From: Saccostrea cucullata
Taxonomy: Eukaryota
Assembly (NCBI RefSeq): GCF_032062105.1
Contig: NW_026923439.1
Location: 1-64,000, forward strand
Reading direction: 5' to 3'
DNA: 64,000 nt
Shown: positions 39,101 to 45,100 of the stretch, one piece after another
Layout of the letters: every line of letters starts with the position of its first letter
Position numbering within the stretch: the stretch's first letter is position 1
Position numbers: made by a program

Positions 39101-42100
39101 CAAAGATGTTTATCTGAAAATCTGTATACCAATTTTCATGTCAGTATGTGCAACCTCTGCAAAGAAAATGAACCGAAACTGCAAATAATTGGAATTTTTC
39201 TGAGTCCAAGGGACATAACTCTGTCAAAAATGGTGCGATCGTACCCAAAACAGAACTTGACCTAGATATTCATGTGATATATCTGTATATATATATATAT
39301 ATTTGTGCAGCGGTTGCGAAGAAAATGAACGGAAACTAAGTGGACCGACAGACCGACCGACAGACAGCAGCAAAGCAATATGCCCTCCCTTCTTCGAAGG
39401 GGGGCATAAAAATATCGAATCTGTTCAAAAGTTATGACCAATGTTAAAGTTTTTCAAAAGTATGTCAAACTCCATCGTCAATGTTGTTGGAAGGAAGGCC
39501 TTGTCAATGGGATACATAAAAATTCAAAAATTATGTCCAAGATTAAATTTATTAAAAAGATTATCAAACTCAAAGGTCAAGGTCAAAATTATTTATACCT
39601 ATGAAAAGGTCTTATCACAATATAACATGTGAGGTATGAAAGCGGCTAGCACCAATTAACTGTTCAAAAGTTATAGACAAAGTCAATGTTGGGTAAATTT
39701 TTGCAAAATTTGGTCAATTAAAATCTAAGGTCAAGAGGTCAAATATGTTGATACCCAAAGAGAGCCCCACATGGAATATGCTATAGCTCCAACCAATTAA
39801 AACTTACGGGCAATGTTTAAGTTTTTGCATACAAATAGATAAACAGACATACCGACGGACAGGACAAAACTATATACACCAGGAACTTCGATTTCTAGAG
39901 TGTAAAATGTTGTTTCTAAAGATATCCATAGCACATGAATCCTTTGTCCAAAGGTCATAGGGATGGTGGAGGTCAGAAAATTATGACGAGACCAAATTGC
40001 TTGACTCGAAAATAAATATTGTATAAATATTCACATCAAATATTTTATAAGATTTTTCTGACAACATCAAGAACTGCGAACACCTAGTGGCACTTTGTTA
40101 GAACTGTTGAATGTAAACCATATTTTGGGGTATGTACAAGCTTTCTATTATTCTTTTATCATCTCGATGGAGGATTTTTACAATATTTAAAATGGTATAA
40201 ATTTTGTATTTAAATACTTGAAATACCCCGCTAGTTATTTCTTTGTTTAAAAAAGGTGTTTGTTTTATTGCTGCATTGTTAAAATATTAAAATTTGCTTA
40301 TCATGCATTTTATCTTGCAGGAAACTATGTACTTCATAGCCATGATCAATCAAGTACCTAGACAAACCGTTCTATCTGAAATGATATTGTCCTACGGACC
40401 TGGTTTAAATAAAATCCACAAATGTTTCCTTTCTGTATGTATATACGGAAGTAGAAAAATCAAGTCATTCAGCTGGTATAGAATAAACATTTTCTTTTGT
40501 TAAATCGAATTAACAGAAATATAATTAAAATAAAACCATGACTGAAGAATGTTGTTCAATGTTGGACAAAGCAGTATTCTGGATATACAAACAAACTGAA
40601 ACAATTATCATACATACAAATATCAGAATCTGCGAGTTGATAATTATTAAAACAACATTCAAGTATGAACATGCAATTATTGCAGGTTTTTTTTTCATCC
40701 TTTGACTTATCTTGGCCATTGGCGTTGTTATCAAGTTTATGAAATTTATCAGATCATATCTTAAAAATTGAAAATCTTTAATAAATATTGTTAAAAACAA
40801 TTTTTAAACATCCGGAAGATTAAATAATCCAGAAATTGTACAGAGGATGTCAGATCAATGTTTATACCATCTAACACTTTATATCCAACACATCATTCGG
40901 CTTCCATAAAAACAGTCCTAAATATCACTTCATTTCGATTAATCCATGGGACCTCTGTTATTGAAGTATTTAACGTTTCTTCAATTTGTCTATTTTATGT
41001 CCTCCTTTTAATCCTACATAGACACCGACAGCAAACCCTGCTAGAAATGTGAACGTAACGATCCAAAACAACGCCTTCCCTTTAACCTCTATCTCCAGAC
41101 CATCTTCTCCAATCTCAATGTCCAAGTCTGACATTTCTATGTCACGGGTCTAGTCTCACGAGTGACGATCAATGTAACAACATGCAACCACTTGACTAAA
41201 CGTGACTATAAGTGATACCGGTTAAGGTGATTGCTTATGTTTGTAAAGGGGAACAAGGCAGTGGGTTACAAAGCTAACATCGAGAAATGCTATATTTTAT
41301 CATGTAGAGCTAAGAAGTATATAATTACTATAGGACTTAGGTAAACATAATGTTATAGATCGAGATATTAAGGTCCGCAGGTACGTATAGCAGGCCCCTA
41401 TACATATAGGAACTCCCCTGATGAGTTTACCCGATATATATACTAATCAAAAAGAATTTTTTAAAAAGCCTTTTACGCTTCTTTTGAATTTTAAATGTCT
41501 AATATAAAAAAAGTCCTTGTTTTACCCTGGGAGATCCAAAACAAGTGTTAGTTCAAAAAGTAAAATAGGAGGTGTACAGTAGCATTATGTAATAAAGAAT
41601 CTGTTAAAGTACATGTATGTATATCATTCAATTTTATTCAGTGGTATAGGAGGAGTTGCGGATAAGAGACGCTAGCATGGGTACCCCTCAATATTATATA
41701 AATGGTGCCTGTTTTGGAGGGTAACAGTTGAAACTGCCACCCCTCGGAAAACCATTGTCAACCGACGCGTCAGCAGAGGTTGACAATGGTTTTCCGAGGG
41801 GTGGCAAAAATATGTGTTTATTATACAAAAATTAAAAAAGAAAAAAATCGTCGATCATCTTTACGTTCACGTTTAGAAAGCTTTCAAACTCCTCGCTACT
41901 TCTAAAAAGATTTACTGACCTTTTTATTGTTTGTTTGATACTCTAAGAGTCTTTTATCATATAAAGTTTCATTATTTTTGCACTCGCAAGCGCATGATTC
42001 GTCTGTCATTTGTTGTTTTCAAGTACATCGGACGCAAGCTTTTAGTGACGTCAAGTTTATTCCAGTTCTTTCAAACGCGCAACTGACGTTTTGAGAATTC

Positions 42101-45100
42101 TACGGTGAACCGTACGCGCATAATATCCACGCATGTGGCATTACCGTTGTGTTACCCGTTGTCACATGCGTTGTTAAGGCTGAGGGTAATAGAACGGATT
42201 GTTAACTGCGTCTAAACCAATCAGATTTTAGTATTTAACATGAAAGTATAATAAAAGGTCATATTATCTATACTGAACGGTCGGATATACATGTCAATAA
42301 GAGACATAAATAAAATTGACTGACGCAAAAATACTTTTTTGTACCATTTATAAGGACTATGAAAGGGAAATGTGATATCGGCCCGGTTTACTATAACATA
42401 TGTGTTCAAGCATTTTTGTCAAGTAAAATAGATAAATTACATGTAATCTATTTAGACAAGAGACAACCTAGAAAAACACCATTCTGAAACAAAGCACCTA
42501 TGATTGTGGTGAGCTTGACCCTGAGTGGCTGCGCGACACACGTTTGTTGGCTCAGGTGAGCTAAAACAGTATCACTACTGTATATACGGTAACTAAGCGA
42601 AAAAATCACAAGAGTTAAACCAAGTAACTCTTGGTAATAAGGCGAGCAGGTTTATTATTATTTTTTTTTTTTTACAACAAAATCAATGTAGAATGGCGTA
42701 AGTTAGGCCTAACAATAAATTTTCAGTAGGCTTGGTAATAGTCAACTTTTGATTCATCAAAACAATATTAATTTCACCGTAAGTATGCAATCCTCGGTAG
42801 TATAGTGGTAAGTATCCCCGCCTGTCACGCGGGAGACCGGGGTTCGATTCCCCGCCGGGGAGGTAGCATTTTTTTTTTTTATAGGATATATATCTTTTAC
42901 ATTTTTTTGCATTTTCAATCAACCGTTTCATAGTATTTATTTGCAGTAAATCTGATGACGTTTTTTTGTTTTATTATTCAGTGGAAGCATTTCCGGAGAG
43001 AGAGAAGACACGGACAGTATTGGAAGACTTATGTAGATCTGTTTGAAAAGGATATAGTGTTTCTGGCGAAGAAGTGGTAAGTATGGACTCATTTAATTGA
43101 TTCAACGGATATAAAGTGAAATAGTCAAACAATGTTTTGTGTTTACATTGACTTTAAAAAATATTATGAGCCACCAAGTACAGTGTAGCAGGTCATGAGT
43201 ACAAAGTGAAAGTAAGCTGTTGTGAACAAGTTTTGGTAAAATCCACTTGTATTAATCCATTTGACTAAAATTTCATCCCATTCTCCGACAGGGTATGACT
43301 CGATGATCTAAAATGTCTTATAAAATTGTGCCAAATTCCGCAAATTTTGTAGATACATGGTAGGCTTTTACGTCTACTTTCATTTTCGTTTGTGTTTCAC
43401 TTAGGCATGTTAAAACATAATATATCAACATACACTAGTCTTAGTCTCATGTTTTATATTGTAGATCAAAGGACCTGACTTTTCCTAAAGTATGGCCAGA
43501 CTCCGCGAAGTATCTGGCACCACGGCCCTGGTTTTGGCGGGTCTGACGTTTGCCTTGGGGTTCTACCTGGGTTACAAGGCAAAAGCTTATCGCCTTCGAT
43601 ATCTCCATAATAAAAGAGATCGTCTGATGAATAAACTGAACAAAGCAACAGAGGACATTCAGTATACAATGAACAATATTTGACAAATACTCGGTTTAGG
43701 TTGTCTGCAATCTCTTTGATATTTTTTAGGTCATATAGATAGGCCTGTATATTTATTGAAATGTCAGCACATAGGGATTATTGGTAACAGAATTTATGCT
43801 GATATAATTTATTGTACATTTTATATGATATATTTTAACATTTACTTGAATATTGTATATCAAGTAATATACTGTATATAATTGAGATTAAAATTTTCTA
43901 TAATAATCATATCCTGTATCAGCCTGAGACACATATATATAGATCACAAAACAGTAGAATGTGAACCAAAAATATATTGTGTTTTATCATAAGTACAGGC
44001 ATCAGGATCACGAATCAAACTTAAACTTATAATTATTCAAATTTTTAATCGCCTATAAAATATTTATCAATTATAGAATTTATTTTTAAATTCGCACATA
44101 ACACCTCAGTGAAACAATATTGAAAAATAGTTTTATATATTTTGGTTTGCTTGACTTCTACAACATTTTATTATAAAATGAAGAGGCTTACTTTTTTTCA
44201 GTTGCCGATTTCTTTCAGTACCATTTTTTGGCATACAATACTACATTTCCCTTGTATCACTTTACCCTAGTACAAACTAGGGAAGGGGAATGTCATTGAG
44301 CCTTTCAGTGAACATTTTTAATAGTAAAAGTAATGTTGGGGAAAAAAGTGAGAGGGCCAGTGTAATACACTACTGTACATGTATATATACCTTCCCGTAT
44401 TATTAACCCTGGAAGATTTGTAGTTTGTACCTAATCTTCCTTCGAAGTGTACTGGTATTATTTTTAATTACATGTGTATATGACCCCTCTGTACATCAAG
44501 AAAAAGTTCATGCTCATTAATTTTTTTTAAATTAAAAATGTTATTTTATAAAGGTGTAAAAAGTAGTACATGTGCCGAGTTAGCTGCAATAATGTAGCCC
44601 TCTCCAATTTTTTTTAATCTGATGTTTACTCCCATAAAAAAAGAAGAGGGCTACATTTTTGCAGCTAGTATTGAGTTTATTATATCTACATGTATTTCAT
44701 TTATTATAGAGTAAATCAGCGATTTGCACCCGTATGTTCAAAGATCGAGAACTAAGTATTGATGAACTAAGATATCACCGTCATTTAACTAGTGTGAAAA
44801 ATACTATAGTACATGCAAAAAGTGTGTTCAAATATTTAAGAAAGCTTGAATCGATTTCAAATTGAGTAATAATAAACGGAGCCTAATAAACGAAATGCTT
44901 CACTTCATCTTTTTTTATCTGTAAGATCAGTTTAAAGACGATCCTTATATAGCGGAAAAAAAATCTCGTATCGGGAAGTCCTCAGCTTTAAGAGGTATGT
45001 TTTGTGCTTACAATAGTTTTTTTAACTTGCTAGCACCAACAACACAGGACTTCGATCGTAAATGACTTCCGTAATATGGGCATTAAGTGGTGTGAATAGT

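What the first reader, a model, noticed from the sequence alone, without database searches (positions are those of the whole stretch)
40970..43683. Candidate system: divergently transcribed pair of related membrane microproteins flanking a tRNA-Asp gene
Seen: the 54-aa ORF (-) and the MTLN-like ORF (+) point away from each other with start codons about 2.36 kb apart. An intact tRNA-Asp and a palindrome-bearing element lie between them. Knowledge: tRNA genes bound by TFIIIC keep chromatin open and can act as insulators. Inference: a compact microprotein module, either co-regulated or insulated by the tRNA gene, in which the two peptides could hetero-oligomerise through GxxxG faces to tune mitochondrial membranes. 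This may be relevant in a hypoxia-tolerant intertidal animal, but that link is speculative.
Basis: inference. Interest (0 to 1): 0.72.

Follow-up and report, generated by a model that had tools for sequence, protein, structure and literature searches.

The report
Two small membrane-protein genes beside tRNA-Asp
Two real, apparently unannotated genes for tiny membrane proteins, one a mitoregulin relative in what looks like a mollusc and one from an unnamed conserved family, lie head to head around a CpG-rich block and a normal tRNA-Asp gene, but nothing shows that the three work as one unit.

Summary
There is a 54-aa ORF (-, 40970-41134), a 63-aa ORF (+, 43492-43683), an intact tRNA-Asp(GTC) (42791-42862) and a perfect 29-nt inverted repeat (41735-41806).

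- **63-aa ORF:** it matches Pfam mitoregulin (MTLN) above the curated cut-off (39.1 vs 27 bits). [quoted passage not shown]
- **54-aa ORF:** it has no Pfam family, but it is not a chance ORF. It belongs to an unnamed family of 43-62-aa single-pass proteins (29 clusters). Start, stop, an acidic N-terminal motif, a GxxxG helix and a basic tail are all conserved.
- **"Related":** this is not settled. The two share an ungapped pattern of conserved residues over about 24 positions. That beats 400 of 400 shuffles, but it is weak (12 bits) and lies mostly in the membrane helix.
- **Spacer:** it holds the densest CpG block of the window, which looks promoter-like. Splice-site reading allows the tRNA to lie in a 5'-UTR intron of the MTLN-like gene.

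The insulator role, co-regulation and hetero-oligomerisation remain untested, and synteny could not be checked. My verdict is three ordinary neighbouring genes, two of which are worth annotating.

The parts
40970..41134 (-). 54-aa ORF (stop included). It is a member of an unnamed conserved family of single-pass microproteins ('fam54'), built of an acidic N-terminal motif, a helix with conserved GxxxG and a basic tail.
   Evidence: ORF. An in-frame stop lies 5 codons upstream of the ATG (stop-to-stop ORF 40973-41149 is 59 aa; sequence). Homologues: 2 at 80% identity, 8 representatives in 1.84 billion and 29 clusters. Hydrophobic core at residues 22-40 (KD 2.07), with flank charges -5 and +5. 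AF2 gives one helix, residues 12-53, mean pLDDT 71. No Pfam family.
40777..40782 (-). ATTAAA, a candidate poly(A) signal about 190 nt after the stop of the 54-aa ORF.
   Evidence: Pattern scan. This is an inference only, with no transcript data.
41601..42600 (.). CpG-rich, promoter-like block between the two ORFs. It holds a full CRE palindrome (TGACGTCA) at 42046-42053.
   Evidence: It has the highest CpG count of all 636 500-bp windows (28; o/e 1.68; window median o/e 0.46). The only comparable block (27; o/e 1.79) covers exon 1 of the p24/TMED gene. The CRE occurs 3 times in the whole window. The promoter role is inferred.
41735..41806 (.). Perfect 29-nt inverted repeat with a 14-nt loop, a foldback element of unknown nature at the left edge of the CpG block.
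   Evidence: Rfam gives only sub-threshold hairpin hits (mir-552 39.7 vs 100; rox1 36.2 vs 58).
42791..42862 (+). tRNA-Asp (anticodon GTC), an intact cytosolic-type gene.
   Evidence: ARAGORN. Rfam RF00005 at 60.4 bits, model positions 1-71 of 71. Box-B-like GGTTCGATTCC and box-A-like TAGTATAGTGG can be read (the consensus forms are recalled).
42869..42880 (+). Run of 12 T starting 7 nt after the tRNA 3' end, a Pol III terminator.
   Evidence: Read directly. That Pol III terminates at runs of T is established knowledge.
42982..43076 (+). Candidate non-coding exon of the MTLN-like gene, between the acceptor ...TTATTCAG| and the donor |GTAAGT. It holds a TTCCGG (ETS-type) motif at 42991.
   Evidence: Heuristic splice scan: this is the best plus-strand acceptor, with its last intron base at 42981, and the donor is at 43077. 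Motif. No transcript data, so inferred.
43465..43683 (+). Start of the coding exon, from the acceptor TTGTAG| at 43464, to the stop. It holds the whole 63-aa mitoregulin-like ORF (43492-43683).
   Evidence: ORF. An in-frame stop lies one codon before the ATG (stop-to-stop ORF 43489-43680 is 64 aa). Pfam MTLN PF22002 at E 6.9e-10, 39.1 bits vs 27, residues 14-57 on profile positions 11-54 of 56. Homologues at 86% and 76% identity, both 63 aa and both carrying PF22002. Acceptor.
43887..43892 (+). ATTAAA, a candidate poly(A) signal about 200 nt after the stop of the MTLN-like ORF.
   Evidence: Pattern scan. Inference only.

Best explanation
Three separate, real genes lie side by side.

1. **The 63-aa ORF** is a homologue of mitoregulin (MTLN) from what looks like an invertebrate. 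It has an N-terminal membrane helix with a conserved FxxGxxxG and a long basic C-terminal part. By homology it most likely sits in a mitochondrial membrane and self-associates, as shown for the vertebrate protein.
2. **The 54-aa ORF** encodes a member of an unnamed, conserved family of single-pass microproteins. It has an alternating hydrophobic/acidic N-terminal motif, a helix with an invariant glycine and a GxxxG, and a basic tail. I infer that it works as a small membrane-embedded subunit that packs helix to helix through its glycine face, with itself or with a larger partner. Which membrane it sits in is unknown.
3. **The tRNA-Asp** is an ordinary Pol III gene. It sits in the open, CpG-rich 5' region of the MTLN-like gene, either just upstream of that gene's promoter or inside its 5'-UTR intron.

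The two microprotein genes are head to head around one promoter-like CpG block, so some shared regulation is plausible. No functional coupling is shown.

Whether the two proteins are very distant paralogues is open; I put it at about one in four.

Shown: the ORFs, their conservation, the family match, the tRNA and the CpG block. Inferred: exon structure, promoters, membrane, topology and oligomerisation.
For: **MTLN-like ORF**
- Pfam PF22002 at 39.1 bits (cut-off 27), E 6.9e-10, covering 44 of 56 profile positions.
- It was the only one of 138 ORFs in 30-50 kb to hit that family.
- Two 63-aa homologues at 86% and 76% identity carry the same Pfam call.
- 46 of 63 columns are invariant among the three.

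**fam54**
- A profile search of 1.84 billion representatives gave 8 hits at E <= 0.001, all with the same architecture.
- An alignment search gave 29 clusters at E <= 0.01 among 642 candidates.
- In 22 aligned members (43-59 aa; pairwise identity 0.24-0.96, median 0.45), G12, G19 and G33 are invariant. F30 is kept in 21, and E7, G9, K18, W24, I25 and G37 in 20 each. The C-terminal flank is positively charged in 22 of 22.
- Three longer forms (P0005, P0006, P0013) share the 54-aa part and then run into mutually dissimilar, low-complexity tails. Conservation therefore ends at the stop.

**tRNA:**

**CpG block**
- It has the highest CpG count of 636 windows. It is matched only by the block over exon 1 of the p24/TMED gene, which is a promoter by position.

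**Vertebrate MTLN**
- Mtln is membrane-bound in mitochondria (review PMC11920140, passage).
- It self-associates into a complex of about 66 kDa (PMC11732159, passages).
Against: - No transcript, ribosome-profiling or peptide data were available, so exon structure, promoters and translation are all inferred.
- No DNA of the homologues could be fetched, so no dN/dS was computed.
- The taxa of the homologues are unknown.
- The local similarity between the two families argues against full independence. hhalign scored 26.8, against a maximum of 18.2 in 200 column shuffles and 19.1 in 200 block-preserving shuffles.
- A fam54 profile built without the window sequence scores all 3 MTLN-like proteins at 11.5-12.3 bits. 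The alignment is ungapped and lines up E16/E6, G19/G9, F30/F20, G33/G23 and G37/G27.
- The MTLN-like ORF is the best non-self hit of the fam54 profile among 1532 window ORFs, at E 0.015.
- The head-to-head position around one CpG block is also what an inverted duplication with a shared promoter would leave.
Confidence: 0.6

Rival explanations
1. The two microproteins are ancient paralogues made by an inverted duplication. They still share the CpG-rich promoter region and act in the same membrane. The tRNA gene is a passenger.
For: - The ungapped shared pattern E-x2-G-x10-F-x2-G-x3-G is present in 15 of 22 fam54 members and 3 of 3 MTLN-like proteins. It occurs in only these 2 of 1532 window ORFs (the pattern was chosen after seeing the alignment, so its weight is limited).
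- hhalign gives 74-77% probability with the deeper alignments, and 0 of 400 shuffles reach the score.
- The genes are adjacent, head to head, around one CpG block.
- There is a precedent: Sloth1/Sloth2 are paralogous single-pass mitochondrial peptides with only 27% sequence similarity that are linked in the genome and bind each other (PMC9681215, passages).
Against: - The score is small: 11-12 bits, E 0.01-0.02 in a search space of only 1532.
- The reciprocal search ranks the 54-aa ORF third, at E 0.58.
- hhalign with the shallow alignment gave 31%.
- The library-wide profile search returned 8 hits, all fam54 and no MTLN-like protein.
- No fam54 member hit Pfam MTLN.
- Matches confined to a membrane helix are unspecific. 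The MTLN-like profile hits an unrelated complex-I single-pass subunit (PDB 7ar9_f, MNLL) at E 0.0025 over the same residues, 6-31.
- The regions outside the membrane do not correspond.
Confidence: 0.25
2. The pair is co-regulated or insulated by the TFIIIC-bound tRNA-Asp gene, and the two peptides hetero-oligomerise through GxxxG faces to tune mitochondrial membranes.
For: - The geometry is as described.
- GxxxG is conserved in both families: G33 in 22 of 22 and G37 in 20 of 22, and G23 and G27 in 3 of 3.
- Vertebrate Mtln does oligomerise (PMC11732159).
- tRNA genes are discussed as insulators in the literature (search listing only; otherwise established knowledge from yeast and mammals).
Against: - No datum here bears on TFIIIC binding, chromatin or expression.
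- There is a single tRNA gene, on the MTLN side of the CpG block.
- The strongest plus-strand donor (42556) and acceptor (42981) flank the tRNA, so it may be intronic rather than lying between two promoters (heuristic).
- Nothing shows that the 54-aa protein is mitochondrial. Its N-terminus is acidic (net -5), unlike a presequence.
- GxxxG is common: 118 occurrences in 95 of 1532 window ORFs.
Confidence: 0.08
3. The 54-aa ORF is a chance open frame in non-coding DNA, and only the MTLN-like gene and the tRNA are real.
For: - ORFs of this length are common in the window: 79 observed and 31 expected by shuffling.
- There is no Pfam family.
- No cluster at 90% identity or more to it was returned from the protein collection.
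Against: - 29 homologous clusters keep the start, the stop and a length of about 54-59 aa down to 24% pairwise identity.
- The invariant residues fall in a coherent architecture.
- Conservation ends at the stop in the read-through forms.
Confidence: 0.03

Closest known systems
Mitoregulin (MTLN / Mtln; the peptide of LINC00116), Pfam PF22002
   Same: The 63-aa ORF matches the family model above its curated cut-off over 44 of 56 positions. It has the same build: a short N-terminus, one membrane helix, and a positively charged C-terminal part (net +6). It is a small ORF contained in one exon.
   Different: It is 63 aa, against 56 aa for the described peptide (PMC6421467, abstract). The host appears to be an invertebrate. 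[quoted passage not shown] Localisation, lipid binding and partners are untested.
Sloth1/Sloth2 (SMIM4 and C12orf73/BRAWNIN), paired paralogous mitochondrial microproteins
   Same: Two small single-pass peptides with subtle sequence similarity, encoded next to each other. In the fly the two bind each other and act together (PMC9681215, passages).
   Different: Sloth1/2 are read from one bicistronic transcript on one strand. Here the ORFs are on opposite strands, 2358 bases apart, with a tRNA gene between them. Neither ORF matched those families in Pfam. Binding and co-expression are not shown here.
tRNA genes as chromatin insulators (TFIIIC-bound tDNAs)
   Same: An intact tRNA gene with box A, box B and a T-run terminator stands between two Pol II genes.
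   Different: Insulator activity is a property measured in reporter or deletion assays, and nothing of that kind is available here. There is one tDNA only. It may be intronic to the MTLN-like gene. I saw only search listings for this literature; the rest is recalled.
Head-to-head gene pairs on a shared CpG-rich (bidirectional) promoter
   Same: The orientation is divergent, with the window's densest CpG block between the two ORFs.
   Different: The usual definition asks for start sites less than about 1 kb apart (recalled). Here the start codons are 2358 bases apart and the start sites are unknown.
Pfam DUF4535 (PF15054). I recall it as the family of the short mitochondrial membrane protein STMP1, but could not confirm this here.
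   Same: There is a weak match to the membrane helix: E 0.28 for the window ORF, and 2 of 8 family members matched with a best E of 0.01.
   Different: The score is far below the cut-off (11.3 vs 28.3 bits), covers only 14 residues, and does not include the N-terminal motif. The two papers that hold the term 'DUF4535' (listing only) gave no help.

Membership tests
Mitoregulin (Pfam PF22002 MTLN) | Sequence match to the family model at or above the curated gathering score. | tested here: met
   39.1 bits against 27, E 6.9e-10, residues 14-57 on profile positions 11-54 of 56. Repeated on the stop-to-stop frame at 39.0 bits.
Mitoregulin (Pfam PF22002 MTLN) | A microprotein of about 56 aa with one N-terminal membrane helix and a positively charged C-terminus. 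| tested here: met
   63 aa. The best 19-residue hydrophobic stretch is 9-27 (KD 1.54), and the C-flank net charge is +6. The architecture is as described in PMC11920140 (passage).
Mitoregulin (Pfam PF22002 MTLN) | Mitochondrial membrane localisation, self-association and lipid binding. | not testable with these tools
   Needs tagging, fractionation and native gels.
Mitoregulin (Pfam PF22002 MTLN) | Membership for the 54-aa ORF. | tested here: not met
   No MTLN hit for the window ORF at max E 10, nor for 8 family members at max E 1. There is only a 24-residue local similarity at about 12 bits.
Cytosolic tRNA-Asp gene (Pol III type 2) | Full cloverleaf, GTC anticodon, internal box A and box B, and a downstream T-run. 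| tested here: met
   ARAGORN. Rfam at 60.4 bits, full length 1-71 of 71. GGTTCGATTCC and a run of 12 T at 42869-42880 are read.
tDNA insulator | TFIIIC/Pol III occupancy, and barrier or enhancer-blocking activity lost on deletion. | not testable with these tools
   No chromatin or expression data are available.
Bidirectional promoter pair | Divergent transcription start sites close together (under about 1 kb) in one nucleosome-free or CpG-rich region. | tested here: inconclusive
   The orientation is divergent and a CpG block lies between the ORFs. The start codons are 2358 bases apart and the start sites are unknown.
Linked paralogous microprotein pair (Sloth1/2 type) | Detectable homology between the two peptides. 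| tested here: inconclusive
   hhalign gave 31%, 77% and 74%. 0 of 400 shuffles reach the score. HMMER gave E 0.015 one way and 0.58 the other. The match is limited to the helix region.
Linked paralogous microprotein pair (Sloth1/2 type) | Both peptides on one transcript. | tested here: not met
   The ORFs are on opposite strands.
Pfam DUF4535 | Match at or above the gathering score. | tested here: not met
   11.3 bits against 28.3. 2 of 8 members matched weakly, with a best E of 0.01.

The most novel reading that the evidence does not exclude
Mitoregulin predates vertebrates and has an ancient sister family, the 54-aa 'fam54' proteins. The two genes have been kept head to head on one CpG-rich promoter because their products co-assemble, through the shared F-x2-G-x3-G helix face, into mixed oligomers in a mitochondrial membrane. 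That would be a second Sloth1/Sloth2-like pair, and a route to the still unresolved mechanism of mitoregulin.
Probability: 0.08. Interest if true: 0.75.

Novelty: new member of a known kind. Interest (0 to 1): 0.48.

Why it matters
- **Mitoregulin's range.** Mitoregulin is much studied, but its mechanism and even its membrane are disputed (PMC11920140, passage). The papers I read treat it as confined to chordates or vertebrates. A clear family member in an apparently molluscan genome moves its origin back. It also offers a distant sequence for deciding which residues matter: the FxxGxxxG helix face and the basic part after the helix are what survive.
- **An unannotated family.** The 54-aa family is conserved across 29 clusters. 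No source gives it a name beyond 'hypothetical protein' (2 of 29), and none carries a Pfam domain. This is the kind of gene that annotation pipelines miss.
- **A testable idea.** If the weak likeness and the head-to-head position reflect common descent, the pair would be a cheap, testable hypothesis for a mitoregulin partner.
- **The system as proposed.** The tRNA-insulated, hetero-oligomerising module has no support so far.

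Tried and rejected
The score was 0.07 against a mark of 0.34, the controls were not run and the alignments were not used.
- **The protein-atlas search on the 54-aa ORF**: the best score was 0.85 with unrelated bacterial clusters. No lead.
- **PDB sequence search:** 0 hits at E <= 1 for fam54. The MTLN-like profile gave 4 weak hits. Three cover only the membrane helix, the best being 7ar9_f at E 0.0025, and the fourth covers the C-terminal part at E 0.76.
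- **AF2 model of the 54-aa ORF**: a single helix, so I ran no fold search. A lone helix gives meaningless matches.
- **Palindrome:** I checked for a known RNA family (all below gathering scores) and for further copies (none). I looked by eye for terminal repeats or target-site duplications around 41624-42323. The 15-nt pair I10 is not collinear with its flanks, so I dropped the idea of a delimited transposon. Its nature stays unexplained.
Names, accessions and taxa of the homologues stayed unknown.
- **Synteny in other species** could not be tested.
- **dN/dS** was not computed, because no DNA of the homologues was available.
- **Literature:** 0 papers hold both 'mitoregulin' and 'oyster'. The six-term search listed no paper with 'mitoregulin' among its 15 rows. 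'smORF' plus 'mollusc' gave 6 papers, none on these genes by title or abstract. 'DUF4535' gave 2 papers, not informative. I did not ask for supplementary files. The conservation tables of the mitoregulin papers may bear on the 'vertebrate-only' claim.
- **Spliced models:** I searched the neighbouring p24/TMED gene exon by exon. I left the joined step out.

Full report
**What is there**

The ORF listing under the standard code gives a 54-aa ORF on the minus strand at 40970..41134 and a 63-aa ORF on the plus strand at 43492..43683. The two ATGs are 2358 bases apart and the genes point away from each other.

ARAGORN finds one tRNA in the whole window, tRNA-Asp (GTC), at 42791..42862 on the plus strand. 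Rfam confirms it at full length with 60.4 bits against a gathering score of 29. A run of 12 T follows 7 nt after its 3' end.

A perfect 29-nt inverted repeat with a 14-nt loop lies at 41735-41806. It folds at -70.5 kcal/mol, z = -10.2, and has no other copy in the window. The window contains no N.

Both ORFs lie in single exons. No spliced protein model had to be joined for them. The neighbouring p24/TMED gene was scanned exon by exon only, and the joined step was left out.

**Is it more than chance?**

Not by length. The window has 79 ATG-ORFs of 54 aa or more, and shuffled sequence gives 31.0 +/- 5.1. Conservation decides it.

The 63-aa ORF matches Pfam PF22002 (mitoregulin) with 39.1 bits against a curated cut-off of 27, E 6.9e-10, over profile positions 11-54 of 56. 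It was the only one of 138 stop-to-stop ORFs between 30 and 50 kb to do so. It has two 63-aa homologues at 86% and 76% identity that carry the same Pfam assignment.

The 54-aa ORF has no Pfam family. Its only match is DUF4535, at E 0.28 and 11.3 bits against 28.3. Even so, it has many relatives:
- two homologues at 80% identity;
- 8 representatives at E <= 0.001 in a profile search of 1.84 billion proteins;
- 29 clusters at E <= 0.01 among 642 candidates in an alignment search.

I aligned 22 of these. I left out the three read-through forms, three N-terminally extended forms, one truncated form and one fragment.
- Lengths are 43-59 aa, and pairwise identity runs from 0.24 to 0.96 (median 0.45).
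- G12, G19 and G33 are invariant.
- F30 is kept in 21 of 22, and E7, G9, K18, W24, I25 and G37 in 20 of 22 each.
- The C-terminal flank is positively charged in all 22.

Three longer predictions (P0005 at 198 aa, P0006 at 123 aa, P0013 at 145 aa) carry the same 54-aa part. They then continue into dissimilar low-complexity tails. I read these as stops read through by a gene caller, so conservation ends where the ORF ends.

In the window an in-frame stop lies 5 codons before the ATG of the 54-aa ORF and one codon before the ATG of the 63-aa ORF. I conclude that both are real protein-coding genes.

Neither search returned a cluster more than 86% identical to the window's own proteins. This suggests, but does not prove, that neither is in a deposited proteome of this genome.

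**Anatomy of the two proteins**

The 54-aa protein has three parts.
- An N-terminal stretch with alternating hydrophobic and acidic residues (net charge -5).
- A hydrophobic core at residues 22-40 (KD 2.07), with GxxxG at 33, 37 and 41.
- A basic tail (+5).

AlphaFold2 with the 22-row alignment gives one helix from residue 12 to 53. pLDDT is about 90 in the membrane part and 50-63 at the N-terminus.

The MTLN-like protein has a helix at residues 9-27, GxxxG at 23, and a C-terminal part with net charge +6. That matches the description of Mtln in the 2025 review (PMC11920140, passage).

**Are the two related?**

For:
- BLASTP finds 9 of 16 identities at E 0.004.
- hhalign gives 31% with 3-row alignments, 77% with 8 rows and 74% with 22 rows. 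The 22-row score of 26.8 is reached by 0 of 200 full column shuffles (maximum 18.2), by 0 of 200 shuffles that keep the hydrophobic block (maximum 19.1), and by neither reversed control (9.5 and 7.9).
- A fam54 HMM run with all filters off against all 1532 stop-to-stop ORFs of the window puts the MTLN-like ORF first after itself, at E 0.015.
- A profile built without the window's own sequence scores all three MTLN-like proteins at 11.5-12.3 bits. The alignment is ungapped and puts conserved residues on conserved residues: E16/E6, G19/G9, F30/F20, G33/G23 and G37/G27.
- The resulting pattern occurs in only these 2 of 1532 ORFs. I chose it after seeing the alignment.

Against:
- The score is small, and the reverse search ranks the 54-aa ORF third at E 0.58.
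- The library-wide profile search found no MTLN-like protein among its 8 hits.
- No fam54 member touches Pfam MTLN.
- The parts outside the membrane do not correspond.
- Helix-only matches are cheap. The MTLN-like profile hits an unrelated complex-I single-pass subunit in the PDB at E 0.0025 over the same residues.

I put distant paralogy at about one in four.

**The spacer**

The 500-bp window with the most CpGs in the whole 64 kb lies between the two ORFs. It has 28 CpGs and o/e 1.68, against a window median o/e of 0.46. The block with o/e >= 1 runs from 41601 to 42600. The only comparable block lies over exon 1 of the p24/TMED gene at 31101-33100. The spacer block holds one of the three full CRE palindromes of the window. 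This looks like a germline-hypomethylated promoter region, but that is an inference.

A crude splice-site scan used weights recalled from memory and is heuristic only. Its best plus-strand sites are:
- the best donor, with its first intron base at 42556, upstream of the tRNA;
- the best acceptor, with its last intron base at 42981, downstream of the tRNA;
- a further donor at 43077;
- a further acceptor at 43464, which is 27 nt before the ATG.

One reading is therefore a three-exon MTLN-like gene that starts in or near the CpG block and carries the tRNA-Asp in its first intron. The other reading is a start site near 42982, with the tRNA about 120 bases upstream. Either way the tRNA sits on the MTLN side of the CpG block. 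It does not sit squarely between two promoters, which weakens the insulator picture. Only transcripts can settle this.

**What it most likely is**

It is most likely three ordinary genes that are neighbours.

The MTLN-like protein most likely behaves like its vertebrate relatives. Those are membrane-bound in mitochondria, with inner versus outer membrane disputed (PMC11920140). They also self-associate into a complex of about 66 kDa (PMC11732159, passages).

For the 54-aa family I infer a small membrane subunit that packs through its conserved glycine face. Its membrane is unknown. The acidic N-terminus speaks against a mitochondrial presequence. A late helix with a basic tail would fit a tail-anchored protein as well as a signal-anchored one (inference from general knowledge).

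The tRNA is a standard Pol III gene in open chromatin. Some shared regulation of the two microprotein genes through the CpG block is plausible. Nothing shows coupling, binding or a link to hypoxia.

**Comparison with what is known, and novelty**

- **63-aa ORF:** it passes the sequence and architecture tests for the mitoregulin family. [quoted passage not shown] No paper in the library holds both 'mitoregulin' and 'oyster'. The Pfam model finds it without effort, so this is a new member of a known family, not a new kind of thing.
- **54-aa family:** it fails the tests for MTLN and for DUF4535. No source gives it a name beyond 'hypothetical protein' (2 of 29).
- **Pair:** the nearest precedent is Sloth1/Sloth2, but those share one transcript (PMC9681215, passages).

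**What stayed unchecked**

- The organism is unverified. The only lead is the otopetrin-like neighbour, whose closest Atlas cluster is mostly molluscan.
- Synteny is untested.
- dN/dS, expression, translation, localisation and binding are all untested.

Noticed in passing
window 45261-46772 (-): A 504-aa open frame without introns, 1.6 kb downstream of the MTLN-like ORF. Pfam gives nothing at E <= 0.01. The Atlas feature search puts it with otopetrin clusters (0.95, 223 of 256 features; all ten best hits share the family; the commonest taxon of the top cluster is Mollusca). It is probably a divergent single-exon otopetrin-like proton channel gene.
   Followed up: partly
window 44581-44667: A second foldback hairpin (about 24-bp arms, -44.5 kcal/mol, z = -7.4) downstream of the MTLN-like gene. 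Rfam gives only sub-threshold miRNA-model hits. Together with the perfect palindrome at 41735-41806, it suggests small foldback elements (MITE-like?) in this neighbourhood.
   Followed up: partly
window 32720-36066 (+): A p24/TMED (emp24/GOLD) gene in four exon-sized ORFs (32720-33025, 34666-34905, 35374-35583, 35926-36066). Together they cover Pfam PF01105 positions 2-182. Its exon 1 lies in the window's other large CpG block.
   Followed up: partly
window 41601-42600: The CpG o/e of this block (1.68) and of the TMED 5' block (1.79) stand far above the window median (0.46). This fits a genome with methylated gene bodies and unmethylated promoters, and could help find start sites of unannotated small genes elsewhere.
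   Followed up: partly
window 19699-20645 (+); 52904-53875 (+); 56031-57211 (+): Other neighbours recognised by Pfam on single ORFs: NUSAP (nucleolar and spindle-associated protein) pieces, a Methyltransf_32 domain protein, and a WD40 beta-propeller protein.
   Followed up: no
proteins P0005, P0006, P0013 (homologues of the 54-aa ORF): Three database predictions read through the family's stop into junk-like tails beginning with W. They look like gene calls made under a code that reads a stop codon as tryptophan, so they are artefacts and not fused forms.
   Followed up: no
window 42508-42515 and 42555-42562: The octamer GGTGAGCT occurs twice, 47 bases apart, each time as a good splice-donor-like site (GTG|GTGAGC and CAG|GTGAGC) just upstream of the tRNA. 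These may be alternative donors of a first exon.
   Followed up: no
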